Below, in pieces: positions 2,902-24,944 of a stretch of 64,000 nucleotides of DNA. The position numbers and the translations under genes were made by a program. The stretch is from a virus (taxonomy: Duplodnaviria > Caudoviricetes), in the IMG/VR virus record IMGVR_UViG_3300043434_000734, positions 128,001 through 192,000 of that record. One strand, 5' to 3'. Position 1 is the stretch's first letter, and each line of letters starts with the position of its first letter. A model generated the notes under the pieces. That model ran no database searches. It was not told the origin of the DNA and saw only the letters and a program-made list of their open reading frames with translations.

Positions 2902-3972
2902 GTGTTAACTACCTTAGAAAAATATCACAAAGATGGTTTGTTACATAAACAAACACACCCGACTCTTGATTTAACTATTTGGAATTACACCCCAAAAGTT
3001 CAGTATGAAAAATTATGGGATGAAATCACAATACAATGTCGTGGATTGGTAACTAATTCTAATGGTGACATTGTTGCTCGACCATTTAAGAAATTCTTTA
3101 ATTATGAAGAACATAAACCAGAAGAGATACCAAACGAAGAATTTGTTGTTTATGAAAAATTAGACGGTTCATTAGGTATTTTATTTAATTACCAAGGGGA
3201 ATGGATATTGTGCACTCGTGGATCATTCACATCACCCCAAGCAATTAAGGGTAAAGAGATTCTTAATAGACACGATATAAGTGCGTTAAGAAAAGATAAT
3301 ACACTTTTATTTGAAATTATTTATCCTGAAAATAGAATTGTTGTTGATTATGGTAACGAAGAAAAATTAGTGGTAATTGGTGGTATACATACTGAAACCG
3401 GCGATGAAATATCCGATGAAGGTTTATCTTTTTTACAACAAGCTGGGTTTGAAGTTGTAACAACATATAAAACTTGGGGTGAAGGTTATGATTTACTTAA
3501 AGAGGATATAAGTAAAGATAAAGAAGGATATGTAATTCGTTTTAAAAGTGGTTTTCGTATGAAAATCAAAGGAGACGAATATGTAAGACTTCATCGTATT
3601 TTAACAAACATATCTAATAGGGATATATGGGAGTATTTAAAGGACAATAGACCGTTTGATGAATTACTCGAAAAAGTACCTGATGAATTTAACGATTGGG
3701 TTAAAAAAACCGTTAGTGATTTAAGATATGGATGTTACCAATTAAGAGAACGCGCAGGTAAATTACACGATGGTTTTAGATATGGTAAATTTGGAGACAG
3801 AGAGGTCGAACCATCTAAAAAAGAATTTGCGGAATTTGTAATGAAACAACAAGAAGTCCTACACGGTATTATGTTTGCTATGTGGGACGGTAATAATAAA
3901 AAAGTAGACGAAATAATTTGGAAATTAGTGAAACCAAAATATTCAAAACCATTTAAGAAAGATGAAAATTGA
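2902..3972 (+). CDS. T4 Rnl1-like RNA ligase
   Basis: CRGLV, RPFKKFFN, motif I EKLDGSLG, TRGSF, FEII, EGYVIRF, KIKG. Confidence 0.88.
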   Translation: MLTTLEKYHKDGLLHKQTHPTLDLTIWNYTPKVQYEKLWDEITIQCRGLVTNSNGDIVARPFKKFFNYEEHKPEEIPNEEFVVYEKLDGSLGILFNYQGEWILCTRGSFTSPQAIKGKEILNRHDISALRKDNTLLFEIIYPENRIVVDYGNEEKLVVIGGIHTETGDEISDEGLSFLQQAGFEVVTTYKTWGEGYDLLKEDISKDKEGYVIRFKSGFRMKIKGDEYVRLHRILTNISNRDIWEYLKDNRPFDELLEKVPDEFNDWVKKTVSDLRYGCYQLRERAGKLHDGFRYGKFGDREVEPSKKEFAEFVMKQQEVLHGIMFAMWDGNNKKVDEIIWKLVKPKYSKPFKKDEN

Positions 3973-15950: not shown

Positions 15951-16023
15951 GGGCCTGATGTCAACGGCAGACCATCTGATTTGCAATCAGAATGAATGGG
16001 TTCGATTCCCACAGCGTCCACCA
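15951..16023 (+). tRNA. trnA: tRNA-Ala(TGC), CCA encoded
   Basis: tctga-tttgcaa-tcaga; G3:U70; TTCGA loop; one bulge in the acceptor stem. Confidence 0.8.
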
Positions 16024-16026
16024 AAT

Positions 16027-16099
16027 TGGAATGTAGCTCAATGGTGAGAGCATCCGCCTGATACGCGGAAGGTTATAAGTTCGAGTCTTATCATTCCAA
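16027..16099 (+). tRNA. trnI: tRNA-Ile(GAT)
   Basis: tccgc-ctgatac-gcgga; full cloverleaf. Confidence 0.92.
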
Positions 16100-16104
16100 C
16101 ATTG

Positions 16105-16177
16105 GGAACTTTGGTATAGCCGGTGCGTACGTTGGACTGAAAATCCGAAGGAACAAGTTCGATTCTTGTAGGTTCCA
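16105..16177 (+). tRNA. trnF: tRNA-Phe(GAA)
   Basis: ttgga-ctgaaaa-tccga. Confidence 0.9.
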
Positions 16178-16240
16178 CAAATAAAGTAAAATTTGAACGA
16201 TAAAGTTAATCACTTTATTAAACAGAAATAACTTTATTAT

Positions 16241-16314
16241 GACCTCTTAGCTCAGTTGGTTAGAGCACCTCACTTTTAATGAGGGAGTCCCGCGTTCGAG
16301 TCGCGGAGGGGTCA
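16241..16314 (+). tRNA. trnK: tRNA-Lys(TTT)
   Basis: cctca-cttttaa-tgagg. Confidence 0.93.
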
Positions 16315-16319
16315 CACAC

Positions 16320-16392
16320 ACGGGTATGGTGAAAATGGTTATCATTTTAGTCTCCAAAACTAAAGTTCCTGATTCGAGTTCAGGTATCCGTG
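16320..16392 (+). tRNA. trnW: tRNA-Trp(CCA)
   Basis: ttagt-ctccaaa-actaa. Confidence 0.88.
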
Positions 16393-16453
16393 CAAATGTT
16401 CGATTTTTTTAGTCCGTTTCGAACTTTCGTGATATTTATAAATAAAGAACATT

Positions 16454-16993
16454 ATGAAAGAAGAAATATTAAAATTAAGAAATGAAGGTAAAACATTTAA
16501 CCAAATAAAAGAAATAATAAAATGTTCTAAATCTACAATTTCATATTATTGTAGTGAAGGGCAAAAAGAAAAAACAAAAATTAGAACTAAAAAGAGGAGA
16601 GAAAACATTATAATTGATAAATTAGAAAGATTTAAATATAGAAAATCTAAATCGAATAAAGAACGAATTAGAAAATTCAATAAAAGAGATAATCAAATGG
16701 ATGGATTAGTTAACAAAAAAATAGAAATTACATTCACATTTGAAGATGTTATCAAGAAGTTTGGTTATAGTACTGTTTGTTATCTTTCCGGAGAAAAAAT
16801 AAATTTAAATGAAAACACATACCATTTTGACCATATTTTACCATCAAGTAGAGGTGGTGATAACACATTAGAAAATTTAGGTGTTACACACGAAATTGTA
16901 AATAAAATGAAAGGGGACTTAACACCAAAGGAACTTATTCTTTGGTGTGAAAAAATTTTGAAATATAATGGATATGATGTAAATAAAATTTAA
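16454..16993 (+). CDS. HTH + HNH endonuclease (probable homing endonuclease) inside the tRNA array
   Basis: N-terminal HTH (GKTFNQIKEIIKCSKSTISYY); CYLSG..FDHILPSSRGGDNTLENL..VNKMKG; own TATTTATA at 16433. Confidence 0.85.
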   Translation: MKEEILKLRNEGKTFNQIKEIIKCSKSTISYYCSEGQKEKTKIRTKKRRENIIIDKLERFKYRKSKSNKERIRKFNKRDNQMDGLVNKKIEITFTFEDVIKKFGYSTVCYLSGEKINLNENTYHFDHILPSSRGGDNTLENLGVTHEIVNKMKGDLTPKELILWCEKILKYNGYDVNKI

Positions 16994-17039
16994 TATTATG
17001 AAAAAAGAATTCGATATGCATTAGTTAAACTAATCGCAT

Positions 17040-17243
17040 ATGACAAACAAAGAGTACAGAGTAAAGAGAATGAAACAATCACACGATTATTGTTTCATAT
17101 GTCAGAAGAGAAATGGAAGTTGGTATTATGATTGCTCCCCAACTTTTGTTCACGGAAGACACGGTAATGGGAAACCGATTGAATCTCATAAAAGAAGAGA
17201 GTATAGAAGTTGGAAGTACAACAGAAAAACTCAATGGAAGTAA
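17040..17243 (+). CDS. Small basic Cys/His-containing hypothetical protein
   Basis: ORF track; CFIC..C..H. Confidence 0.5.
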   Translation: MTNKEYRVKRMKQSHDYCFICQKRNGSWYYDCSPTFVHGRHGNGKPIESHKRREYRSWKYNRKTQWK

Positions 17244-17272
17244 TGTTTACTATTAACAGTAAACAGTAAACG

Positions 17273-17344
17273 GGTCTCTTGGTGTAACGGATAGCACGAA
17301 ACACTACGGATGTTTTAGTAAGGGTTCAAATCCTTTAGAGACCT
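17273..17344 (+). tRNA. trnR: tRNA-Arg(ACG)
   Basis: aaaca-ctacgga-tgttt. Confidence 0.88.
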
Positions 17345-17405
17345 CAATGTTCACAAATTTTTAATGTTCACGTTCCGTGAACAAACAAAAAAAGTGAACA
17401 AAAAA

Positions 17406-17476
17406 GTCAGGTTGGCCGAGCGGCTAGGTGAAGGTCTGCAAAACCTTTAAGATAGGTTCGACTCCTATACTTGACT
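17406..17476 (+). tRNA. trnC: tRNA-Cys(GCA)
   Basis: aaggt-ctgcaaa-acctt. Confidence 0.92.
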
Positions 17477-17481
17477 CTTAT

Positions 17482-17553
17482 GGTGTTTGAAGCTTTAAGG
17501 TGAAGCACGAGTTTGTGGAGCTCGGGAAGACGGTTCGATACCGTTCATACACC
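17482..17553 (+). tRNA. trnH: tRNA-His(GTG)
   Basis: cgagt-ttgtgga-gctcg; G-1:C73. Confidence 0.88.
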
Positions 17554-17558
17554 CATAT

Positions 17559-17629
17559 TGCGGGGAGGAAGGTTCCCGACCAGTCTCATAAGCTGTGTCT
17601 CCCGAGTTCGATTCTCGGCCCCGCAACCA
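17559..17629 (+). tRNA. trnM: tRNA-Met(CAT) with shortened D-arm, CCA encoded
   Basis: tgcgggg/ccccgca acceptor stem; ctcataa loop. Confidence 0.75.
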
Positions 17630-17680
17630 AAAAGTTTTAAAAATAATTTGAAATAATTTCGGATATTCGTATTTATTTCT

Positions 17681-17688
17681 TACATTTG
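17681..17688 (+). promoter_or_regulatory. Bacteroidota -7 promoter box
   Basis: TACATTTG. Confidence 0.6.
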
Positions 17689-17709
17689 TAAAACAATAAT
17701 GACAGAAAA

Positions 17710-17838
17710 ATGGCGAAAGCACCGAGAACATCGAAAAGAGTTGGTAAAGTGGCAAGTAAAGCATTAAGAAGTAAAAAAAGTAGCAAGACAACAAAAACTC
17801 TTGCGGGAAGTTCTTTGAGACAACGGAGAAAAAAGTAA
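17710..17838 (+). CDS. Small highly basic protein (42 aa, MAKAPRTSKRVGKVASKALRSKKSSKTTKTLAGSSLRQRRKK)
   Basis: Read directly from sequence; promoter upstream; not in the ORF track. Confidence 0.65.
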   Translation: MAKAPRTSKRVGKVASKALRSKKSSKTTKTLAGSSLRQRRKK

Positions 17839-17843
17839 AATAA

Positions 17844-17915
17844 GCCTCTTAAGCATTGCAGGCGATGCGCCAGATTTGTAATCTGGATAACTCGGTTCGA
17901 TTCCGGGCGGAGGCT
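17844..17915 (+). tRNA. trnT: tRNA-Thr(TGT)
   Basis: ccaga-tttgtaa-tctgg. Confidence 0.88.
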
Positions 17916-18376
17916 CAACAAGTGACGACTGTGGTGTAACCCCACGGTATATAAATCCCAAAGAACTGTCTTGATTCGCGATATCAGAGCAGTGAGGGTA
18001 GAGTTTACTATAAGCGGGGAGTAATTAACCCAATGCGAAAATGTAACCACCAAGTGTAGAGATATATTTGGTTATGATGTACAGAAGGGTACAAAAAACT
18101 TGTTAATTTATTAATTTAGATTCTGATAACTTATAACTAAAGTTTTACTTAAACAAAGGTTATGGAGCAATTTGAGAAATGTTGTTATCACTAAGAATGT
18201 AAATTAATAAAGTTTGATTACGTTAGGTATGTAGTTTAAAAAGAACAATGTCCTAATAGATGAAGGTGTGAGTAATCACCTTACTTAACGTAATTTAAAT
18301 TTAAAACTAACTCAACGAGGACTTTGTTAACCAGAGCAAGACTTGGATGGTGCAACTTAAGGTGAGTTAGAATTTT

Positions 18377-18448
18377 GGTCCTGTAGTTAATCGGCTATAA
18401 TATTGCCCTGTCACGGCAAAGTGCCGGGTTCGATTCCCGGTGGGACCG
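18377..18448 (+). tRNA. trnD: tRNA-Asp(GTC)
   Basis: ttgcc-ctgtcac-ggcaa. Confidence 0.92.
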
Positions 18449-18672
18449 CAATGAGTAAGAGATACTCAATAGTCTTTAATCCAAGACTCATTTAACAATG
18501 GATGGTGGTTTGTAGTATCAACCTTAACGACTGCATATTGGGAACAAGGATTGTGGACCTACTCTCCCCCAAGTATTAGGTTGACGTTTTAACAGAGGGA
18601 TGCCTCGCAGGTTTTTGAGACAGACAAAAAACCGAAGTAACTACTCATCAGGAATCTCAAGGTGGGGAAAAT

Positions 18673-18760
18673 GGAGAGATGGTAGAGTTGGTCTATTGCA
18701 CCTGACTTGAAATCAGGAGTACTCGTGAGGGTACCGTGGGTTCGAATCCTACTCTCTCCG
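18673..18760 (+). tRNA. trnS: tRNA-Ser(TGA) copy 1
   Basis: cctga-cttgaaa-tcagg; long variable arm; G73. Confidence 0.93.
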
Positions 18761-18876
18761 CTGTAGAGTTTGCCCGTGGTAACGGTCTGATAAGATACTT
18801 TCAGACTTCTCGCGTCAAAACCCAAAACACTGACCTACTGGTGCTTGGGCTAAATGTAGAAAAAAAACGGGATATT

Positions 18877-18964
18877 GGAGAGATGGCAGAGTTGGTCGAT
18901 TGCGTCAGACTTGAAATCTGAAGAACGGGAAACTGTTCCGTGGGTTCGAATCCTACTCTCTCCG
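18877..18964 (+). tRNA. trnS: tRNA-Ser(TGA) copy 2
   Basis: tcaga-cttgaaa-tctga; long variable arm; G73. Confidence 0.93.
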
Positions 18965-19004
18965 CGAACCAAAAGTCCAATGGGGAGGATCCACTACACG
19001 ATTA

Positions 19005-19204
19005 GCAATCGGAAGAGTAGATTAAGACTAAGGTTGCTTGACACTCCGGAAAGACGAGAAAACAATCAAGTAGAGTGGTGGTACACTCACTATGTATGCA
19101 TCGTAAGATGGACGCCTTCTTCCCGCAGAGCACATAGATATGTCGTTTAGTGATATGGAAGAACACGGGAACGATTTGTAGGTTCGAATCCTATCTTGAT
19201 TGCC
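19005..19204 (+). ncRNA. 200-nt RNA closed by a tRNA-like acceptor stem and T-arm
   Basis: GCAATCGG pairs with TTGATTGC; GTAGG-TTCGAAT-CCTAT; several internal hairpins. Confidence 0.55.
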
Positions 19205-19317
19205 TTTCCTTTCAGGGTAACGACCTGATAAATTTTGAGATACTAAAGTTGTAACACCAGGGACTCAACGAAAGAAAGTCGGAAACTAAACTTGACTGAT
19301 GGAAAGACATCAAATTT

Positions 19318-19447
19318 GGGAAGGTAGCAGAAATGGAAGATGCGTTATACGAAAGCTACGTATAAGACGCGATGACGGACACAAAAGTACAATGTGTTGA
19401 ACTAAAGATTACGCATCGTTATGGGTTCGATTCCCACTCCTGTCCCA
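19318..19447 (+). ncRNA. 130-nt tRNA-like RNA with non-canonical anticodon loop and giant variable arm
   Basis: GGGAAGG/CCTGTCCC, D-arm GCA-gaaatggaaga-TGC, TTATACG-aaagcta-CGTATAA, ATGGG-TTCGATT-CCCAC. Confidence 0.65.
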
Positions 19448-19648
19448 CAGGTCGTCTTTTTATATTGCTCAGTTTGTGGAGTTAACTTTAGAGACGTTAA
19501 ACTTAAAGTAATGAATCCAAGCCCTTTTAAAGTTGTGGTACAACTGGGTCCATTTCCTTACCGAAGGAGGTTTCCGGACCTAAAATAGAAGCCTCAAACG
19601 ACTGAAAAAAGTAGGGACATATGAGACTACCTAATCTCGTCCCGAAAT

Positions 19649-19720
19649 GGCCCTATCGACAAGCGGTTAAGTCACGTCCCTTTCACGGATGAGTCACGGG
19701 TTCGAATCCCGTTGGGGCTA
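19649..19720 (+). tRNA. trnE: tRNA-Glu(TTC)
   Basis: cgtcc-ctttcac-ggatg. Confidence 0.92.
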
Positions 19721-19735
19721 CTAAATGGTTTTACT

Positions 19736-19894
19736 ATGAAGAAGATTGTATTTTTATTGTTAGTAATGGTTACAATGAGTAGTTGTTTATATACAACATA
19801 TAGACGACCTTATTATCAACGATATCCGACTTATCAGAAACATTATCAACCAAATAAAAAATATAAACCTTACTTTAGACCAGGTCGTTGGTAA
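19736..19894 (+). CDS. Small Tyr/Pro/Arg-rich lipoprotein
   Basis: MKKIVFLLLVMVTMSSC lipobox; ATG at 19736. Confidence 0.65.
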   Translation: MKKIVFLLLVMVTMSSCLYTTYRRPYYQRYPTYQKHYQPNKKYKPYFRPGRW

Positions 19895-19948
19895 AAAATA
19901 TTTACTATTAAATTGAATTTTTATATATTTGTATATACTTATTAAGAA

Positions 19949-20053
19949 ATGAAGAACATAAATAACATATTGTCACTTAGTACTAGACCATTAAATAATG
20001 GTAACGGGTATGGTGTGCAACCCGTGAATTTATGTTCGGATACTCATATTTAG
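19949..20053 (+). CDS. Putative leader peptide (34 aa, MKNINNILSLSTRPLNNGNGYGVQPVNLCSDTHI)
   Basis: Between TATATTTG (19924-19931) and a terminator. Confidence 0.5.
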   Translation: MKNINNILSLSTRPLNNGNGYGVQPVNLCSDTHI

Positions 20054-20077
20054 AAATTTAATTAATTAAAATATAGA

Positions 20078-20111
20078 CCCGAACGACTTAAAAAATTGTT
20101 CGGGTTTTTTT
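20078..20111 (+). terminator. Intrinsic terminator / attenuator
   Basis: CCCGAAC..GTTCGGG plus T7. Confidence 0.8.
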
Positions 20112-20128
20112 ATGTTATTTTTTTTCTT

Positions 20129-20154
20129 TATATTTGAAATGTAGTTCTTTGACA
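20129..20154 (+). promoter_or_regulatory. Bacteroidota -7 box followed by boxA-like element
   Basis: TATATTTG 20129-20136; GTTCTTTGACA 20144-20154. Confidence 0.65.
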
Positions 20155-20169
20155 TTGTGGAAATGATTT

Positions 20170-20254
20170 GCTCGGGTGGTGTAATGGTAGCCACGAGGGA
20201 CTTAAAATCCCTTGGACAGAAACGTCCGTGCCGGTTCGAGTCCGGCCCCGAGTA
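20170..20254 (+). tRNA. trnL: tRNA-Leu(TAA)
   Basis: aggga-cttaaaa-tccct; long variable arm. Confidence 0.93.
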
Positions 20255-20369
20255 CAATGTAATGACTTAGAAATAAGTGACGGAACAGACGCTATGTATG
20301 AAATGGAAACGTTTGAAACATTTTAAAGATGTTGATTCGACACAAACCGTACAGACATTACATTAAATT

Positions 20370-20443
20370 GGTCCAATAGCTCAGCTGGATAGAGCAACTC
20401 TCTTCTAAAGAGTAGGTCTCAGGTTCGAATCCTGATTGGATCA
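20370..20443 (+). tRNA. trnR: tRNA-Arg(TCT)
   Basis: actct-cttctaa-agagt. Confidence 0.93.
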
Positions 20444-20588
20444 CGAAGATAATGGTTTTCACCACCTTACGGATGTCGACAATCCACGGTGGAATCTGAA
20501 AACAGCACCCTCTGCCGAGCGCTCGTAAAACTACGATTAAGCAGTTAAGATTGGAACGAGACGGGTATTCCAACATTATCTTTATTTT

Positions 20589-20661
20589 AGAGTAGTTGAC
20601 CAATCGGTAGGTCCCTTGCTTTGGGAGCAAGTGTGTGTAGGTTCGAGTCCTGTCTACTCTA
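20589..20661 (+). tRNA. trnP: tRNA-Pro(TGG)
   Basis: cttgc-tttggga-gcaag. Confidence 0.9.
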
Positions 20662-20668
20662 CAAAAAC

Positions 20669-20740
20669 GTTGGTATAGCTTAATGGTGAAGCATTCGGCT
20701 GTTAACCGAAAGACTGTAGGTTCGAGCCCTACTACCAACG
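20669..20740 (+). tRNA. trnN: tRNA-Asn(GTT)
   Basis: ttcgg-ctgttaa-ccgaa. Confidence 0.92.
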
Positions 20741-20747
20741 CAAAAAT

Positions 20748-20824
20748 ACCCGTATGGCGGAATTGGCATACGCGTCAGATTTAGGATCTGAATTTTGTAG
20801 GTTCGAGTCCTACTATGGGTACCA
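20748..20824 (+). tRNA. trnL: tRNA-Leu(TAG) lacking the long variable arm, CCA encoded
   Basis: tcaga-tttagga-tctga; 5-nt variable loop. Confidence 0.85.
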
Positions 20825-20869
20825 GGGATTGGTTGACACTAAACAACAAAACCAAAAGGAAGTGTAAAA

Positions 20870-20954
20870 TTGGAGGATGGGTGAGTGGCTAAAACCGGCA
20901 GACTGTAAATCTGCTCTCAGAACGGGTACGGGGGTTCGAATCCCTCTCCTCCAA
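20870..20954 (+). tRNA. trnY: tRNA-Tyr(GTA)
   Basis: gcaga-ctgtaaa-tctgc; long variable arm. Confidence 0.93.
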
Positions 20955-20968
20955 CAAAAACAAAAACT

Positions 20969-21616
20969 ATGGCAACATTAGAAACACAGTACAAGAATTA
21001 CTTAAAGTTGAATCCAGATTCAACATTCACATTTGAAGAATGGAAAGAAGATTTCGGTGGTAACGTGCTTAGACAAATGTCCGATATCTTAAAAGAAATC
21101 AAAACTCCTGAATATAAAGAAAGACGTATTAAGGAACACGAAGAACGTCTTAAAAATATTACAATGGATTATCAATTGGGACAATACGTTGGTGAGTACA
21201 TTGTAAGTCACAATCTTCCAACATTATCGACCGATATGATTCACTCTAATCGTGTGATTAAAGTGTCTGACGAAGAACAAACTGAATGTGAAAGATTGGA
21301 TGGTGAATATGTTAAATCATTGGAAGCCAATCAATGGAAAAATGGTGATAGTGAATTATTTGAAGCGTGGAAACAATATCGTAAGGTATTGGAAAAGAAA
21401 TATCTTCCACAAGTTTTAGAGTGTCATCTTAGTTTAATAAGAATTGATGACATAGTAAAATTTAAAGAAGGTTTATCTGATTGTCTTTGGAATTGTGATA
21501 TGTGTTCTTATGACATCAAAGAAGAAAACATCACAATTGAAAATGATTTACTTAACGGATTTACAATTATCAAATTTCAATATGATTCGAGTTGTAATGA
21601 TGAAATGAAAAAATAA
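20969..21616 (+). CDS. Hypothetical protein within the tRNA array
   Basis: 215-aa ORF with phage-like codon usage. Confidence 0.7.
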   Translation: MATLETQYKNYLKLNPDSTFTFEEWKEDFGGNVLRQMSDILKEIKTPEYKERRIKEHEERLKNITMDYQLGQYVGEYIVSHNLPTLSTDMIHSNRVIKVSDEEQTECERLDGEYVKSLEANQWKNGDSELFEAWKQYRKVLEKKYLPQVLECHLSLIRIDDIVKFKEGLSDCLWNCDMCSYDIKEENITIENDLLNGFTIIKFQYDSSCNDEMKK

Positions 21617-21667
21617 AATATCGTTTAAATATACGATATACGATTTTATCGTCTTAATAAACGATAT

Positions 21668-21741
21668 GGACTTGTAGCTCAGTAGGTTAGAGCAACTGAC
21701 TCATAATCAGTAGGTCCCTGGTTCGAGCCCAGGCTGGTCCA
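21668..21741 (+). tRNA. trnI: tRNA-CAT (probably Ile2/lysidine type)
   Basis: actga-ctcataa-tcagt; Ile2-like body. Confidence 0.8.
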
Positions 21742-21802
21742 CAAAGAGATTAGGATATTCCTTACCCGTCGCCTCGGGATGACATCGTCAGTCTCTTTAC
21801 AT

Positions 21803-21877
21803 AGAAGATTAGTTCAGTCGGTTCAGAGCATCTGTTTTACACACAGAAAGTCGGGGGTTCGAATCCCTCATCTTCTA
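21803..21877 (+). tRNA. trnV: tRNA-Val(TAC)
   Basis: tctgt-tttacac-acaga. Confidence 0.92.
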
Positions 21878-21946
21878 CAAAAAAATTGGGATTGGGTTAA
21901 TACTGATATGGAGGCAATTCCTGGTATTATCGCCGCCCAATTAAAT

Positions 21947-22022
21947 GCGAAAGTAGCTCAGTCGGTAGAGCACAACCTTGCCAAGGTTGGGGTCGCGAGT
22001 TCGAATCTCGTCTTTCGCTCCA
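21947..22022 (+). tRNA. trnG: tRNA-Gly(GCC), CCA encoded
   Basis: caacc-ttgccaa-ggttg. Confidence 0.95.
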
Positions 22023-22025
22023 TAT

Positions 22026-22098
22026 GCGAATATAGCTCAATTGGTAGAGCACTAGTTTTCCAAACTGGGGGTTGCAGGATCGTTCCCTGTTATTCGCT
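22026..22098 (+). tRNA. trnG: tRNA-Gly(TCC)
   Basis: ctagt-tttccaa-actgg; variant T-loop. Confidence 0.85.
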
Positions 22099-22192
22099 CA
22101 ACTCAAGTACCCATACCGCTAACGATGGGCTAAGTAAGATACAAATTCGTACCACATTATTGTGGAGGCGGGAAGTAGAATGCTTGAGACAC

Positions 22193-22263
22193 TGTCCTTT
22201 GGTGTAACGGTAACACAATCGTTTTTGGTGCGATTATTTTAGGTTCGAATCCTAAAGGGACAA
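22193..22263 (+). tRNA. trnQ: tRNA-Gln(TTG)
   Basis: atcgt-ttttggt-gcgat. Confidence 0.88.
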
Positions 22264-22278
22264 CTTAAATTTTTAAGT

Positions 22279-22509
22279 ATGAGTATTTTTGCAATTTACT
22301 ACGTAATATGTATTGCGTATTGTTTCTATCAATTAAATAAAAAATATAGAAACAGAGGTGTTGATTATGGAACATCACCAGAGTTAGATTCCATAATGGT
22401 TTTGGTTATGGCTTGGATTTTAGTGCCAATTGATGTGTCGATAACTTGGATACGAATGGTGAAAGAAGCAGAGGAGTCTAAAAGAAGACAAGAGAAACAA
22501 GTACTTTAA
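22279..22509 (+). CDS. Small two-TM membrane protein
   Basis: Two hydrophobic segments. Confidence 0.6.
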   Translation: MSIFAIYYVICIAYCFYQLNKKYRNRGVDYGTSPELDSIMVLVMAWILVPIDVSITWIRMVKEAEESKRRQEKQVL

Positions 22510-22570
22510 CTAGTGGGCCACGGTGGTAGGCCAAAAGAAAAATAGATGTTTTTCATCCACCAAATTTTAT

Positions 22571-22656
22571 AGAGAGTTACCCAAGTTGGTGAAGGGGCCT
22601 GTTTGCTAAACAGGTAGGATGTTAAAGTCGCAAGGGTTCGAGCCCCTTACTCTCTA
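22571..22656 (+). tRNA. trnS: tRNA-Ser(GCT)
   Basis: cctgt-ttgctaa-acagg; long variable arm. Confidence 0.9.
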
Positions 22657-22661
22657 CACAT

Positions 22662-22811
22662 TGTAGTGTGACGAAACTTGGCAGACGTGCCCTCCTGTCT
22701 CGGGGGTGTGGAACAAGAAATAGGTTAATAATATGGGGTAGACCACCAGCCGGCCGGCGAAGTGTTATTAACTGAATCTCCATTTAAGTGGTTCGAATCC
22801 CTTCACTACAG
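22662..22811 (+). ncRNA. 150-nt tRNA-like RNA with ~80-nt variable arm and pyrimidine-37 loop
   Basis: TGTAGTG/CACTACA+G; D-arm ACG-aaacttggcaga-CGT; CCCTC-ctgtctc-GGGGG; GTTAATAATAT/GTGTTATTAAC; GGTTCGAATCC. Confidence 0.7.
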
Positions 22812-22848
22812 CACTAATAAACCAATAATTATAATAAATGAAAAAGTA

Positions 22849-23310
22849 ATGAAAAAATTCAGAACTCTCCACGGAACCCCAATTCCAGATGTAATCAATT
22901 ACATTAGAGAGTATATTTCAACAAGAGAGGATGTGGAAATTCTCATAGGATCAGATTCACAATCATATTCAAACAGGAAAACTGTTTATGGTGTTGTTAT
23001 TGCCCTTTATACAAAAGGTAAGGGTGCACACGTATTATGTACACGTGAGACATTACCTATGGAATATAATGTGGCATCGAGATTACTTGGTGAAGTTTGG
23101 AAATCAATTGAGATTGCTGAATTTTTAAAAGAGAATGGTTTACCAAAACCTACTTGGATTGATATTGACTTAAATCCCGACCCAAAATACAAATCAAATA
23201 ATGTTCTTAGACAAGCAGTTGGTATGGTTGAGGGTATGGGTTATAAAGTAAGGTACAAACACGTAGGTGCGTTAATGACATATGCCGCAAATCATTTAGT
23301 TAGGTTATAA
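22849..23310 (+). CDS. YkuK/DUF458-like RNase H-fold protein
   Basis: ILIGSDSQ, YGVVIAL..KGKGAHV, RLLGEVWKS, IDIDLNPD, AANHL; ATG at 22849. Confidence 0.8.
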   Translation: MKKFRTLHGTPIPDVINYIREYISTREDVEILIGSDSQSYSNRKTVYGVVIALYTKGKGAHVLCTRETLPMEYNVASRLLGEVWKSIEIAEFLKENGLPKPTWIDIDLNPDPKYKSNNVLRQAVGMVEGMGYKVRYKHVGALMTYAANHLVRL

Positions 23311-23347
23311 TTTTGTTTTTTAAAATAATTCAATTACTTTTTATTAT

Positions 23348-23701
23348 ATGGTAAAACAACAAATTATAAATTTAACATATTCTTTAATGTTATTTTTACT
23401 CGGTTCGATAGGACATTGGTACATTATGTATTGGCAATTTAAAATGCCGAATTGGGTTAAGACCCCGTGGCCGTATTTGATATCAGTGGGTTGTACTTTT
23501 TTATGGATTACAGCATCCCATTATGGTGTTAAAGCATTCAACGGTGAAATGTGGAGTAATAGGTTTTTGTTCTTTGTAACAGGTATCATTATTGCGGCAA
23601 TGTTATATCCGTACCATTTCGGTCAACCATTTACAGTTAAAACGATGGTACAATTAATATTGGCATTTACCATAATATTAATTTCACTTTTTTGGAAATA
23701 G
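23348..23701 (+). CDS. Four-TM small membrane protein (SMR/EamA-like), paralogue of 62981-63319
   Basis: Shared AFNGEMWSNR / SFNGEIWPSR and PFTVKT / PLTLKT motifs. Confidence 0.6.
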   Translation: MVKQQIINLTYSLMLFLLGSIGHWYIMYWQFKMPNWVKTPWPYLISVGCTFLWITASHYGVKAFNGEMWSNRFLFFVTGIIIAAMLYPYHFGQPFTVKTMVQLILAFTIILISLFWK

Positions 23702-23752
23702 ATTTTTTTATTTGATTTTTATTTCTTATATTTTAATTATAAAGACAACAAT

Positions 23753-23980
23753 ATGAAATGTATTAAGGCAATTAAAGAAACTAAATCCTATTCATTAGGT
23801 GAAATTCGTAGAACTGATGACGTTGATGCTGACCAAAAAGTGGCTAGTGGTGTATGGACGTTTATTCCTAAATCAGAATGGAAAGTAAGTAAGAAAGGTA
23901 AAAAAGAAGAAGTGGAAATTACTCACGATATGGGTGGTTCTATTGAAGTAAAAAAAGAAAAGAAAAAAAATAAAAAATAA
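23753..23980 (+). CDS. Small Lys-rich hypothetical protein
   Basis: ORF track. Confidence 0.55.
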   Translation: MKCIKAIKETKSYSLGEIRRTDDVDADQKVASGVWTFIPKSEWKVSKKGKKEEVEITHDMGGSIEVKKEKKKNKK

Positions 23981-24015
23981 TTTAATTAATATTTTGTTTT
24001 TATAAAAAGTATTCG

Positions 24016-24052
24016 TACATTTGTAAAACAATAAGAGAAAAAGTTCTTTGAT
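24016..24052 (+). promoter_or_regulatory. Bacteroidota -7 box and boxA-like element
   Basis: TACATTTG 24016-24023; GTTCTTTGAT 24043-24052. Confidence 0.65.
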
Positions 24053-24060
24053 TTAAAAAT

Positions 24061-24870
24061 ATTGGCCGCCTATGGTCGATTAAAATAAACCACGAAAGTG
24101 GGATAAAGTGACGAGTCCTTGGTTGGGACAAGTTGCGGTTTCAGTAATGGAACTTGAGTAGGCAAGTGGAGTATCGTTGAACCTTAAGTACTGAGGGTAA
24201 CACTTTAGGGAAAGTGGTTTGATGACTGAGCAATCCGAGTTGTTTGGTTGAGGTGGGAACACCAATAAGAATAATCCATAGAGTTATTGTGAGAAATATG
24301 GTTATCCGACTATATGATTACGTGATTCAATATGATGGGAATCTTAAAACCGAAAGGTATGGTGAAGTACGAGTGGTGTCGTTATCATCCTTTATTAAAC
24401 TCTACCAAGGGTTTAGTTTTGAAGGGGTCCAAAAATATGGTAGCAGGGATGTTACAGAGAGTAGTTTAGTATCGAGTCGCTCAAAAGGTGGCTTGGCTAG
24501 GTGACGAACCACTACTTTCCAAATTCGGATAACTAAATTTTGTTAATTTTGGTTTAACAACTTAAAATCATACAAGAAAAAGTGTTCGTCAGTCGTTGTA
24601 GACAGGTGGCTACATAGTCGTGAGGGGTTCACGGCCACAAAGGGTCTCAAGCCCAATGTGATTTTTAAAAAAGTTCTCTAAACCCGCAAGGTTGAATCAG
24701 GGAGGCATCTTTGATGAGTAATGAGTATTAAAAGAGTATATAACGACTCAAGGATTGGTTAATCTAATTGACCGCCGCTGATTGGTACTACTCAAAAGGT
24801 AGTGGATATGGGAAGAATCAAATAATGTCCCTAAGTCAATCAAAAAATGGTGTAATCTCAGCCCTTTCTT
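24061..24870 (+). ncRNA. Large (~800 nt) structured ncRNA, GOLLD-like candidate
   Basis: G-rich, no credible ORF, many tetraloop hairpins (CCAC-GAAA-GTGG, ACC-GAAA-GGT, AGTCGC-TCAAAA-GGTGGCT, CTACT-CAAAA-GGTAG); own promoter and boxA; near the tRNA array. Confidence 0.6.
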
Positions 24871-24944
24871 TTTTCAATTTTGTGTAAAATTGAATGGTGG
24901 AATTAAGTACGATATTAAAAAACCGTGCGGCCCTCAACAAAATT

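What the first reader, a model, noticed from the sequence alone, without database searches (positions are those of the whole stretch)
22662..22811. Giant tRNA-like RNA ending the array: Leu/Ser-type body, GTC loop with U37, ~80-nt variable arm
Seen: a perfect 7-bp acceptor stem with G73, a class II D-arm, a 5-bp anticodon stem with loop CTGTCTC, and an 11-bp helix GTTAATAATAT/GTGTTATTAAC capped by a GC-rich branched tip. Known: G73 plus a long arm are SerRS identity elements. Inference: either a Ser-charged RNA bearing an Asp anticodon (programmed mistranslation) or a tRNA scaffold displaying an aptamer-like domain. With 19005 and 19318, this makes a family of three oversized tRNA mimics.
Basis: partly seen in the sequence, partly recalled or inferred. 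Interest (0 to 1): 0.75.

Follow-up and report, generated by a model that had tools for sequence, protein, structure and literature searches.

The report
Giant-armed, non-decoding tRNA-Asp-like phage RNA
A family of uncultured giant freshwater phages encodes a conserved 150-170-base RNA that folds like a tRNA and keeps the marks read by the aspartate-charging enzyme, but has a broken anticodon loop and a 76-base folded extra domain ending in a self-complementary hairpin, so it is very probably a tRNA-shaped tool, not a decoder.

Summary
It is a real RNA gene. I found 128 copies (97 distinct) in IMG/VR jumbo-phage contigs and five small Bacteroidota MAG contigs. On these, 97.4% of cells pair in the proposed structure, and 36 of 47 pairs show compensatory changes.

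The frame is a full cloverleaf with the tertiary tRNA pairs. ARAGORN calls tRNA-Asp(GUC) once the 76-nt domain is deleted in silico.

It is not a decoder. Position 33 is U in only 53 of 97 copies and position 37 is a purine in 1 of 97. In 282 ordinary tRNAs from the same contigs both are 282 of 282. A normal tRNA-Asp coexists.

G34-U35-C36, C38 and G73, the five strong aspartate identity determinants, are invariant, so host AspRS is my best candidate reader (inferred). The acceptor top U1-A72/G2-C71/U3-A70 is the tRNA-Gln type.

The variable domain is a covarying three-way junction. One hairpin is a perfect palindrome in 96 of 97 copies (19 different palindromes), which points to RNA homodimers (inferred).

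No Rfam family matches, and T4 rnaC/rnaD are not homologues. The 'Ser-charged Asp decoder' reading is not supported; 'tRNA scaffold carrying a domain' fits.

First readers of this scan noted the same family in other genomes.

The parts
22662..22668 (+). Acceptor stem, 5' strand (U1 G2 U3 A4 G5 U6 G7). The upstream base (-1) is U.
   Evidence: All 7 pairs covary and 99.9% of cells pair. UGU/ACA is present in 121 of 128 copies.
22669..22688 (+). U8 G9 and a class II-type D arm. The 3-bp stem is 22671-22673 with 22686-22688. The loop AAACUUGGCAGA holds A14, A15 and the GG elbow bases.
   Evidence: T8, G9, G12, A14, A15, G19, G20 and C25 are invariant, and two of the three stem pairs covary. About three-quarters of relatives (76 of 97) carry an extra hairpin inserted here. 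The model's best ordinary-tRNA matches are mostly class II tRNA-Leu.
22690..22706 (+). Anticodon-like arm. The 5-bp stem encloses loop CUGUCUC (22695-22701). G34 U35 C36 lie at 22697-22699, U37 at 22700 and C38 at 22701.
   Evidence: All 5 stem pairs covary and 100% of cells pair. GUC and C38 are invariant in 97 of 97, while positions 32, 33 and 37 vary.
22708..22783 (+). The 76-nt variable-arm domain as a whole.
- Pv1: 22708-22711 with 22780-22783, and 22716-22717 with 22778-22779.
- Invariant internal loop: AAAUA (22718-22722) opposite GAAU (22774-22777).
- Pv2: 12 bp, 22723-22734 with 22762-22773.
- Three-way junction at the tip.
   Evidence: Pv1 and Pv2 covary strongly. Domain length stays within 72-79 nt in all 97 copies. 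The domain was never found outside a tRNA frame.
22735..22747 (+). Pv3 hairpin GGGGUAGACCACC, almost invariant in sequence. Its loop U(A/U)GA contains GAC, the complement of GUC.
   Evidence: G75-T78 and G80-C85 are invariant. Only the outer pair covaries, G-C in 78 copies and U-A in 7.
22749..22758 (+). Pv4, a perfectly palindromic hairpin GCCGGCCGGC and the candidate dimerisation site.
   Evidence: 96 of 97 copies hold a perfect even palindrome here, in 19 different sequences. The 'loop' positions covary as U-A 57 and G-C 21. The hairpin is worth -1.4 to -4 kcal/mol against -17 to -27 kcal/mol for the self-duplex.
22786..22803 (+). T arm. The stem is AAG(U)GG/CCCUU with one bulged U (22789), and the loop is UUCGAAU.
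   Evidence: The T loop is invariant in its GUUCGA core and four of five stem pairs covary. The bulge is present in 28 of 97 copies.
22804..22812 (+). Acceptor stem 3' strand CACUACA, discriminator G73 (22811) and encoded C74 (22812). C75 and A76 are not encoded.
   Evidence: G73 is present in 127 of 128 copies, C74 in all but one, and CCA is encoded in only 11 of 128. All 25 ordinary tRNA genes of the window follow the same N73-C74 grammar.
22571..22657 (+). tRNA-Ser(GCU), the immediate upstream neighbour in the same transcription unit.
   Evidence: ARAGORN and Rfam both call it. A tRNA-Ser is the nearest upstream tRNA in 49 of 102 independent loci, and lies within 15 nt in 28 of them.
18377..18449 (+). 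Canonical tRNA-Asp(GUC) of the same array. It has G1-C72, G73 and loop CUGUCAC.
   Evidence: It shows that the element is not needed to decode Asp codons.

Best explanation
The element is a gene for a stable, non-decoding, tRNA-shaped RNA.

Shown:
- It has a conserved, covarying cloverleaf with the tRNA core tertiary pairs.
- It carries a 76-nt three-way-junction domain in place of the variable arm.
- Its anticodon-type loop has lost the two features needed for ribosomal decoding, U33 and a purine at 37.
- It keeps G34, U35, C36, C38 and G73.
- It follows the same N73-C74 gene grammar as the phage's real tRNAs.

Inferred, step 1: it is transcribed with the tRNA array, cut out by RNase P and the 3' tRNA-maturation enzymes, and completed with CCA by the host enzyme.

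Inferred, step 2: the invariant GUC, C38 and G73 are kept because host aspartyl-tRNA synthetase, a homodimer, reads them. The RNA would then dock on AspRS and may be aspartylated.

Inferred, step 3: two RNA molecules pair through the palindromic Pv4 hairpin into a symmetric dimer, so the invariant parts of the domain (internal loop and Pv3) are displayed in pairs.

The net proposal is a phage RNA that uses a tRNA chassis for maturation and stability, uses an aspartate identity set to engage AspRS, and carries a dimerising effector domain. What the complex achieves downstream is not known. Candidates are titrating or re-tasking AspRS, or carrying an activated aspartate.
For: Conservation and structure:
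- 128 copies, 97 distinct.
- 97.4% of cells pair, 36 of 47 pairs have double changes, and 0 of 500 shuffles reach this.
- The tertiary set is invariant or covaries: U8, A14, A15 with U48, G18G19, the T loop, and positions 26 with 44.
- ARAGORN calls tRNA-Asp(gtc) once 22708-22783 is removed in silico.

Not a decoder:
- U33 in 53 of 97 and R37 in 1 of 97, against 282 of 282 for both in ordinary tRNAs of the same contigs.
- A T-stem bulge in 28 of 97.
- A canonical tRNA-Asp is present in the window and in a complete 288.7-kb relative.

Aspartate identity:
- PMC9976931 names G73, G34, U35, C36 and C38 as the five strong, conserved determinants, with G2-C71 as a minor one.
- All five are invariant here, and G2-C71 is present in 96 of 97, while the neighbours 32, 33 and 37 drift.

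Maturation like a tRNA:
- C74 is encoded and CA is not, as in all 25 tRNA genes of the window.
- The element starts 4 nt after tRNA-Ser, and no + strand terminator-like site lies in the scanned 21600-24200.

Expression:
- RNA-library contigs from two studies cover the element. Depths are 85 and 13 at 22677, and 10 and 20 over 22710-22820.
- The flanking coding DNA laid in the same call has about 0 depth.

Dimer:
- Perfect palindrome in 96 of 97 copies, as 19 variants.
- The central 4 nt covary although they cannot pair within one hairpin.
- Cofolding two copies of the whole RNA gains about 19 kcal/mol through this site.
Against: - No aminoacylation, binding or dimerisation has been measured.
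- G1-C72, strictly conserved in bacterial tRNA-Asp and said to position the 3' end in AspRS (PMC9976931), is U1-A72 here.
- G10 is present in only 58 of 97 copies.
- From established structural knowledge, class II synthetases approach tRNA from the variable-loop side, so a 76-nt arm could clash with AspRS.
- A few divergent members have A38 or lack the palindrome: the L015 group, L057, L132, L079 and L116.
- The invariance of GUC could instead reflect an RNA-RNA contact or another protein.
- The RNA evidence comes from assembled contigs, so it gives no ends and no CCA.
Confidence: 0.4

Rival explanations
1. Scaffold only. The tRNA frame is just a processing and stability chassis, and the 76-nt domain is the whole function, as a protein-binding or ligand-binding module. 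On this view the invariant GUC(U)C loop is not read by a synthetase. It pairs with the invariant (A)GAC of the Pv3 loop, within one molecule or across the dimer.
For: - GUC (22697-22699) and GAC in Pv3 are both invariant and complementary.
- The domain's internal loop and Pv3 are as invariant as the anticodon.
- Positions 32 and 79 co-vary as C/A and U/U.
- Phage tRNA clusters hold other tRNA-framed RNAs without any anticodon (scan note e1-5404973).
Against: - It does not explain why G73 and G2-C71 are kept together with C38.
- C82 is needed to close the Pv3 hairpin.
- The 32/79 signal is one subfamily split, not repeated covariation.
- No covariation can test the contact, because both partners are invariant.
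Confidence: 0.25
2. Decoy or sponge. The RNA mimics tRNA-Asp for a host anticodon-loop nuclease or other tRNA-directed defence or modification enzyme, and protects the real tRNA-Asp pool.
For: - The anticodon triplet and C38 are preserved while decoding features are lost.
- tRNA-targeting immunity and phage tRNA countermeasures are well documented (PMC10264068 and PMC12409363, listed).
Against: - No defence nuclease specific for tRNA-Asp was identified here.
- A loop-directed nuclease would not require G73, the UGU/ACA acceptor top, or a conserved 76-nt dimerising domain.
Confidence: 0.15
3. The RNA is a SerRS-charged tRNA (G73 plus a long arm) that decodes GAY codons as Ser, giving programmed mistranslation.
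For: G73, G2-C71 and a long helical variable arm are serine identity elements, and serine identity is independent of the anticodon (PMC9976931 and PMC7609411).
Against: - U33 is not conserved and position 37 is a pyrimidine in 96 of 97 copies, against 282 of 282 in real tRNAs.
- The T stem is bulged in 28 of 97 copies.
- C11-G24 is present in only 32 of 97 copies.
- An anticodon that SerRS ignores and the ribosome cannot use would not stay invariant.
Confidence: 0.05
4. A tRNA-Asp gene interrupted by an intron or mobile insertion that is removed, or a decaying pseudogene.
For: Deleting 22708-22783 in silico restores an ARAGORN tRNA-Asp call.
Against: - The insert sits in the variable region, not the anticodon loop.
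- It has no match to any intron or ribozyme family, even at E up to 10.
- It is itself under strong structural selection.
- The remaining tRNA would still lack U33 and R37.
- 97 distinct intact copies argue against decay.
Confidence: 0.03

Closest known systems
Phage T4 species 1 and species 2 RNAs (rnaC 139 nt, rnaD 119 nt)
   Same: They are stable RNAs of unknown function, larger than tRNAs, encoded at the end of a T4-type phage tRNA cluster and matured with the tRNAs. rnaC has a tRNA-type T arm.
   Different: There is no detectable homology: the family model R1 gives no hit on rnaC or rnaD at E up to 1, although it finds T4's tRNA-Leu. The T4 RNAs have no GUC loop and no 76-nt variable-arm junction.
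Class II bacterial tRNAs, especially tRNA-Leu
   Same: They share a 3-bp D stem, a large D loop with the GG elbow, the A15-U48 pair and a helical variable arm that starts right after position 44. Most of the best-scoring ordinary tRNAs under the family model are tRNA-Leu, at about 37 bits.
   Different: The variable arm is 76 nt and branched, against roughly 13-21 nt. The element has G73, an antideterminant for LeuRS (PMC9976931). Its loop is GUC and non-decoding.
Bacterial tRNA-Asp (aspartate identity set)
   Same: G73, G34, U35, C36, C38 and G2-C71 are all present and invariant.
   Different: The element has U1-A72 in place of G1-C72. It has a class II body, lacks conserved U33 and R37, and carries a giant variable domain.
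Aminoacylatable viral tRNA-like structures (TYMV, BMV and TMV 3' ends) and the tRNA-like domain of tmRNA
   Same: These are non-decoding RNAs that keep synthetase identity elements and a CCA-type end in order to engage the host translation machinery.
   Different: The viral structures are 3' ends of RNA genomes, and tmRNA is an alanine-specific domain without an anticodon arm. This element is a free-standing DNA-phage gene with a complete cloverleaf. The window has its own separate tmRNA at 27436-27839.
Palindromic dimerisation hairpins (HIV-1 DIS) and self-assembling phage RNAs (phi29 pRNA; GOLLD and ROOL cages)
   Same: A self-complementary loop or hairpin is conserved as a palindrome while its sequence changes. 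A GOLLD RNA lies 1.3-1.6 kb downstream on the same strand.
   Different: Dimerisation is only inferred here. The palindrome is a 3-bp stem plus a 4-nt loop inside a three-way junction, so an extended duplex is more likely than a kissing loop.

Membership tests
Canonical decoding tRNA (Rfam RF00005) | Cloverleaf with a 7-bp acceptor stem, D, anticodon and 5-bp T arms, plus the core tertiary pairs | tested here: met
   All four stems covary. U8, A14, A15 with U48, GG and the T loop are invariant. ARAGORN calls a tRNA once the extra domain is deleted.
Canonical decoding tRNA (Rfam RF00005) | U33 and a purine at position 37 in a 7-nt anticodon loop | tested here: not met
   U33 in 53 of 97 and R37 in 1 of 97. 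The control is 282 of 282 for both.
Canonical decoding tRNA (Rfam RF00005) | Reaches the Rfam gathering score or is called by ARAGORN; variable region of normal length | tested here: not met
   No Rfam hit even at E up to 10. ARAGORN finds nothing on the full sequence. The variable domain is 72-79 nt.
tRNA-Asp identity (AspRS substrate) | Strong determinants G73, G34, U35, C36 and C38 | tested here: met
   GUC and C38 in 97 of 97 and G73 in 127 of 128. The determinants are as listed in PMC9976931. A38 occurs only in a few divergent members.
tRNA-Asp identity (AspRS substrate) | G1-C72 and G2-C71 in the acceptor stem; G10 | tested here: inconclusive
   G2-C71 in 96 of 97. Position 1-72 is U-A in 96 of 97, not G-C. 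G10 in 58 of 97.
tRNA-Asp identity (AspRS substrate) | Actual aspartylation by AspRS | not testable with these tools
   This needs an in vitro charging assay. No RNA-protein modelling tool was available.
tRNA-Ser / SerRS substrates | G73, G2-C71 and a long helical variable arm | tested here: met
   The first 4 bp of the arm start one base after the anticodon stem.
tRNA-Ser / SerRS substrates | C11-G24 and a serine-type arm length and orientation; serine anticodons in decoders | tested here: not met
   Position 11-24 is U-A in 64 copies and C-G in 32. The arm is 76 nt and branched. The anticodon is invariably GUC.
T4 species 1 / species 2 RNA | Sequence and structure homology to rnaC or rnaD | tested here: not met
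   Model R1 finds T4 tRNA-Leu, Ser, Gln and Thr in L044, but finds neither rnaC (2909-3047) nor rnaD (3054-3172) at E up to 1.
T4 species 1 / species 2 RNA | Oversized stable RNA encoded at the end of a phage tRNA cluster | tested here: met
tmRNA | tRNA-Ala-like domain without an anticodon arm, plus a tag reading frame and pseudoknots | tested here: not met
   ARAGORN and Rfam place the tmRNA at 27436-27839 and nothing here. This element has a complete anticodon-type arm and G73.
Intron-containing bacterial tRNA (group I intron in the anticodon loop) | Insert in the anticodon loop with a group I or other ribozyme core | tested here: not met
   The insert is in the variable region. No intron or ribozyme family matches at E up to 10. 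ARAGORN's intron mode does not call it.
allo-tRNA / tRNA-Sec | 8/4, 9/3 or 8/5 acceptor/T-stem geometry with a long variable arm | tested here: not met
   The geometry is 7/5 in all members.

The most novel reading that the evidence does not exclude
The RNA is a chimera of identity marks. It combines the aspartate anticodon, C38 and G73 with the U1-A72 first pair. In these phages that first pair is the hallmark of tRNA-Gln, and it is the published positive determinant for the tRNA-dependent amidotransferase GatCAB (PMC9976931).

All four Bacteroidota MAGs that hold contigs with the element encode GatB. The RNA could therefore be aspartylated by dimeric AspRS as a palindrome-linked RNA dimer, and then converted to an asparaginyl-RNA. 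This would make it a phage-made mimic of a transamidosome substrate, or an off-ribosome carrier of an activated amino acid, held on a non-decoding tRNA chassis.
Probability: 0.12. Interest if true: 0.9.

Novelty: new variant of a known kind. Interest (0 to 1): 0.72.

Why it matters
Oversized tRNA-like RNAs in phage tRNA clusters have been known since T4's species 1 and 2 RNAs, about fifty years ago, and their function is still unknown.

This family is abundant, at well over 100 jumbo-phage contigs, and it is structurally resolved by covariation. It also offers a concrete handle on function:
- its decoding features have decayed;
- exactly the five strong aspartate identity determinants have been frozen;
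- a tightly length-constrained three-way-junction domain with an always-palindromic hairpin has been added.

That makes three bench tests immediately possible: charging by AspRS, dimerisation, and partner pull-down. If AspRS recognition holds, this would be the first DNA-phage RNA shown to exploit a synthetase identity set for something other than decoding. The 76-nt branched variable arm would extend the known limits of tRNA architecture.

It also matters for annotation, because neither ARAGORN nor Rfam sees this gene.

Tried and rejected
- The single-sequence fold is uninformative: the MFE is no better than shuffles (z = -0.19) and is not the cloverleaf.
- GenBank phages hold no homologue. 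Distant blastn of 22560-22830 matched only the tRNA-Ser part, and megablast of 16 kb found only tRNA fragments. No cultured relative was found.
- An exact 31-mer from the domain gave no hit in IMG/VR. The degenerate motif worked.
- In genome contigs, 75 motif hits is within the chance expectation, about 175 by my own estimate. Only five small Bacteroidota MAG contigs carry the full element. One archaeal hit, L182, with 6 of 7 acceptor pairs, was discarded as chance.
- Linkage to the downstream RNase H-like gene (PF04308) was rejected: only 14 of 102 independently found loci have that gene nearby.
- Phage-encoded partners were not found. AspRS/AsnRS/LysRS (PF00152), the CCA-adding enzyme (PF01743) and GatB (PF02934) are absent from three related genomes, two of them at least 97% complete.
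- A mutual-information scan for extra tertiary pairs recovered only the 26-44 pair and a single subfamily split at positions 32/79. No convincing pseudoknot emerged.
- I tried by eye to read the invariant internal loop as a K-turn, loop E, UAA/GAN motif or 11-nt receptor. None fits cleanly.
- GOLLD lies within a few kb on the same strand in 25 of 121 loci. I regard this as shared synteny of the structured-RNA island, not evidence of partnership.
- The metatranscriptome contigs cannot give RNA ends, strand or CCA status.
- The whole genome of the window is not held.

Full report
**Observation.** The window belongs to an uncultured freshwater jumbo phage. It carries 24 ARAGORN tRNAs at 16027-22657, a GOLLD RNA at 24457-24864 (314 bits) and a tmRNA at 27436-27839. 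Neither ARAGORN nor Rfam calls anything at 22662-22811, and Rfam still finds nothing at E up to 10.

- a perfect 7-bp acceptor stem, UGUAGUG/CACUACA, followed by G73;
- U8 G9 and a 3-bp D stem with a 12-nt loop containing GG;
- a 5-bp stem with the 7-nt loop CUGUCUC;
- a 76-nt insert in the variable region;
- a T arm with loop UUCGAAU.

The single-sequence fold is not informative (z = -0.19).

**Conservation.** I used the downstream RNase H-like gene (PF04308) to fetch 43 related IMG/VR loci. BLAST found the element in 20 of them at 69-89% identity.

The same motif gave 75 hits in genome contigs. That is within the chance expectation, which I estimate at about 175. Only five of those hits carry the whole element, and all five are small contigs of Bacteroidota MAGs: Algoriphagus, Flectobacillus, and uncultured Bacteroidetes and Bacteroidia.

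In all I recovered 128 full copies, 97 of them distinct (alignment A2). A covariance model built from them scores the window copy at 152.9 bits, the copy in a complete 288.7-kb relative at 142.7 bits, and a divergent subgroup at 97.1 bits. The next hits, at 38 bits and below, are ordinary tRNAs, most of the top ones class II tRNA-Leu at about 37 bits. There is one copy per genome.

**Structure.** On A2, 97.4% of the 4506 cells form standard pairs. 36 of 47 pairs show changes on both sides, no shuffle out of 500 reaches any observed measure, and slid controls pair at only 42-50%. All of the following covary:
- the acceptor stem (7 of 7 pairs);
- the D stem (2 of 3 pairs);
- the anticodon-type stem (5 of 5 pairs);
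- the T stem (4 of 5 pairs);
- both helices of the variable domain, Pv1 and the 12-bp Pv2.

The tRNA core is intact. U8, A14, A15, the GG of the D loop, U48 and the T loop are invariant, and positions 26 and 44 co-vary. When 22708-22783 is deleted in silico, ARAGORN calls tRNA-Asp(gtc).

The domain length is held to 72-79 nt. Its tip is a three-way junction made of Pv2, a nearly invariant hairpin GGGGU(A/U)GACCACC (Pv3), and a short hairpin (Pv4). An internal loop, AAAUA opposite GAAU, is invariant in 97 and 92 of 97 copies respectively. About three-quarters of the relatives (76 of 97), but not this window, carry a further hairpin inserted in the D loop.

**Not a decoder.** In the 7-nt loop, G34, U35, C36 and C38 are identical in all 97 sequences. 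Position 33, however, is U/C/A/G in 53/33/10/1 copies, and position 37 is U/C/A in 85/11/1. As an internal control, 282 distinct ordinary tRNAs from the same contigs have U33 and a purine at 37 in 282 of 282 cases. ARAGORN's scoring may favour these features, so that control is somewhat circular.

Other points agree:
- 28 of 97 members, including this one, have a bulged base in the T stem.
- A normal tRNA-Asp(GUC) is present in the window (18377-18449) and in the complete relative.
- With the tRNA-Ala(UGC) that ARAGORN missed at 15951-16020, the array already covers all twenty amino acids.

**What reads it.** The review PMC9976931 states that aspartate identity rests on five strong, evolutionarily conserved determinants: G73, G34, U35, C36 and C38. 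G2-C71 is a minor determinant, and G1-C72 is strictly conserved in bacteria. The element keeps exactly those five invariant, and also G2-C71 in 96 of 97 copies, while the loop neighbours drift.

Selection on a protein that reads both the anticodon loop and the discriminator explains this pattern most simply, and AspRS is the obvious candidate. Serine identity (G73 plus a long arm) is independent of the anticodon, so it cannot explain the invariant GUC and C38.

Three facts count against a simple AspRS substrate:
- the first pair is U1-A72;
- G10 is present in only 58 of 97 copies;
- from established structural knowledge, a class II enzyme approaches from the variable-loop side, where the 76-nt arm sits.

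The conserved acceptor top UGU/ACA (121 of 128 copies) is the signature of tRNA-Gln in these phages, found as TGT or TGC in 17 of 18 tRNA-Gln genes and in almost no other isoacceptor. U1-A72 is the published positive determinant of the tRNA-dependent amidotransferase. GatB is encoded in all four Bacteroidota MAGs that hold element-bearing contigs. It is not encoded in the phages, which also lack AspRS and a CCA-adding enzyme. I treat the amidotransferase idea as the speculative 'novel case' only.

**Maturation and expression.** All 25 tRNA genes of the window encode N73-C74 and, with two exceptions, not the final CA. The element has the same grammar, G73-C74-A, and C74 is kept in 127 of 128 copies. 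It starts 4 nt after tRNA-Ser(GCU). A tRNA-Ser is the nearest upstream tRNA in 49 of 102 independently found loci. No + strand terminator-like site lies in the scanned 21600-24200.

Contigs of metatranscriptome libraries from two studies cover the element. Depths are 85 and 13 at position 22677, and 10 and 20 across 22710-22820. The coding DNA on either side, laid in the same call, has about zero depth, and GOLLD is very strongly covered. These are contigs, so RNA ends and CCA status remain unknown.

**Palindrome.** In 96 of 97 sequences Pv4 is a perfect even palindrome of 6-12 nt (at least 8 nt in 95), in 19 different versions. Examples are GCUUGCAAGC, GCCGGCCGGC, UCCUGCAGGA, GCAUGCAUGC, GGCGGCCGCC and AGCCGGCU.

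A hairpin needs only its stem to be complementary. Here the four 'loop' bases are also self-complementary, and their outer pair covaries as U-A in 57 copies and G-C in 21. Those bases cannot pair within one hairpin. The hairpin alone is worth -1.4 to -4 kcal/mol, the self-duplex -17 to -27 kcal/mol, and cofolding two whole molecules gains about 19 kcal/mol through this site.

I infer an RNA homodimer, which has not been shown. One class of the D-loop inserts in relatives is also fully palindromic. A DNA-level explanation, such as a binding site for a dimeric protein, cannot be excluded.

**Comparison with known families.** Nothing in Rfam 15 matches. T4's species 1 and 2 RNAs are the closest in kind: oversized, stable RNAs at the end of a T4-type tRNA cluster. 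They are not homologues, because the family model finds T4's tRNAs but not rnaC or rnaD.

The two other oversized tRNA-like genes of this window, 19064-19204 and 19318-19446, are real and conserved. They do not share this domain: the first scores 17.9 bits and the second gives no hit.

The review of non-canonical natural tRNAs (PMC7609411) describes nothing with a variable arm of this size. First readers of this scan flagged the same family in other genomes and also noted the Asp marks. Those are unchecked notes, and I verified the claims on my own alignment.

**Verdict.** This is a real, widespread and previously uncatalogued tRNA-derived RNA of Bacteroidota jumbo phages. The structural claims and the 'non-decoder' claim are well supported. 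AspRS recognition (about 0.4) and homodimerisation (about 0.5-0.6) are inferences with clear tests. The ultimate role is open.

Noticed in passing
window 15951-16020 (+): ARAGORN misses a tRNA that Rfam scores at 32 bits. By eye it is tRNA-Ala(UGC), with G3-U70, A73 and an encoded CCA, and its D arm is odd. With it the array covers all 20 amino acids.
   Followed up: partly
window 19064-19204 and 19318-19446 (+): Two further oversized tRNA-like genes. ARAGORN calls them only in intron mode. They are conserved in some relatives (L006, L008-L011, L067), with covariation in the acceptor and inner stems. Their inserted domains are unrelated to this family.
   Followed up: partly
window 24085-24882 (+): Single metatranscriptome contigs span 24109-24882, so the GOLLD transcript is about 800 nt and begins some 370 nt upstream of the Rfam hit (24457-24864). 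A homologous ~800-nt RNA lies on the same strand within a few kb of the element in 25 of 121 loci.
   Followed up: partly
relatives, D-loop columns 16-43 of alignment A2 (e.g. L049:2645-2814, L013:7803-7972): About three-quarters of family members (76 of 97) have a hairpin inserted in the D loop. One class has a 7-nt loop CUC(A/U)GUU that echoes the GUCUC word. Another class is a perfect palindrome of 8-20 nt, such as GCGUACGC, GACCUAGGUC or GAUUGACACGCGUGUCAAUC.
   Followed up: no
window 16027-22657, all tRNA genes: Every tRNA gene encodes N73-C74 but, apart from tRNA-Leu(UAG) and tRNA-Gly(GCC), not C75-A76. Related phage genomes encode no CCA-adding enzyme, so the phage depends on the host enzyme.
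   Followed up: partly
L239:5501-5627, L238:727-839, L029:4005-4138, L017:4839-4939: Other tRNA-like hits of odd length (101-134 nt) to the family model, at 30-34 bits, in related phages. They may be further families of oversized tRNA-like RNAs.
   Followed up: no
window 16454-16993 (+): An HNH endonuclease ORF with an N-terminal helix-turn-helix sits inside the tRNA array. This recalls segB inside T4's tRNA cluster.
   Followed up: no
window 17562-17629 (+): A weak partial tmRNA-model match (18 bits, E = 0.00036) right after tRNA-His. It is far below the gathering score.
   Followed up: no
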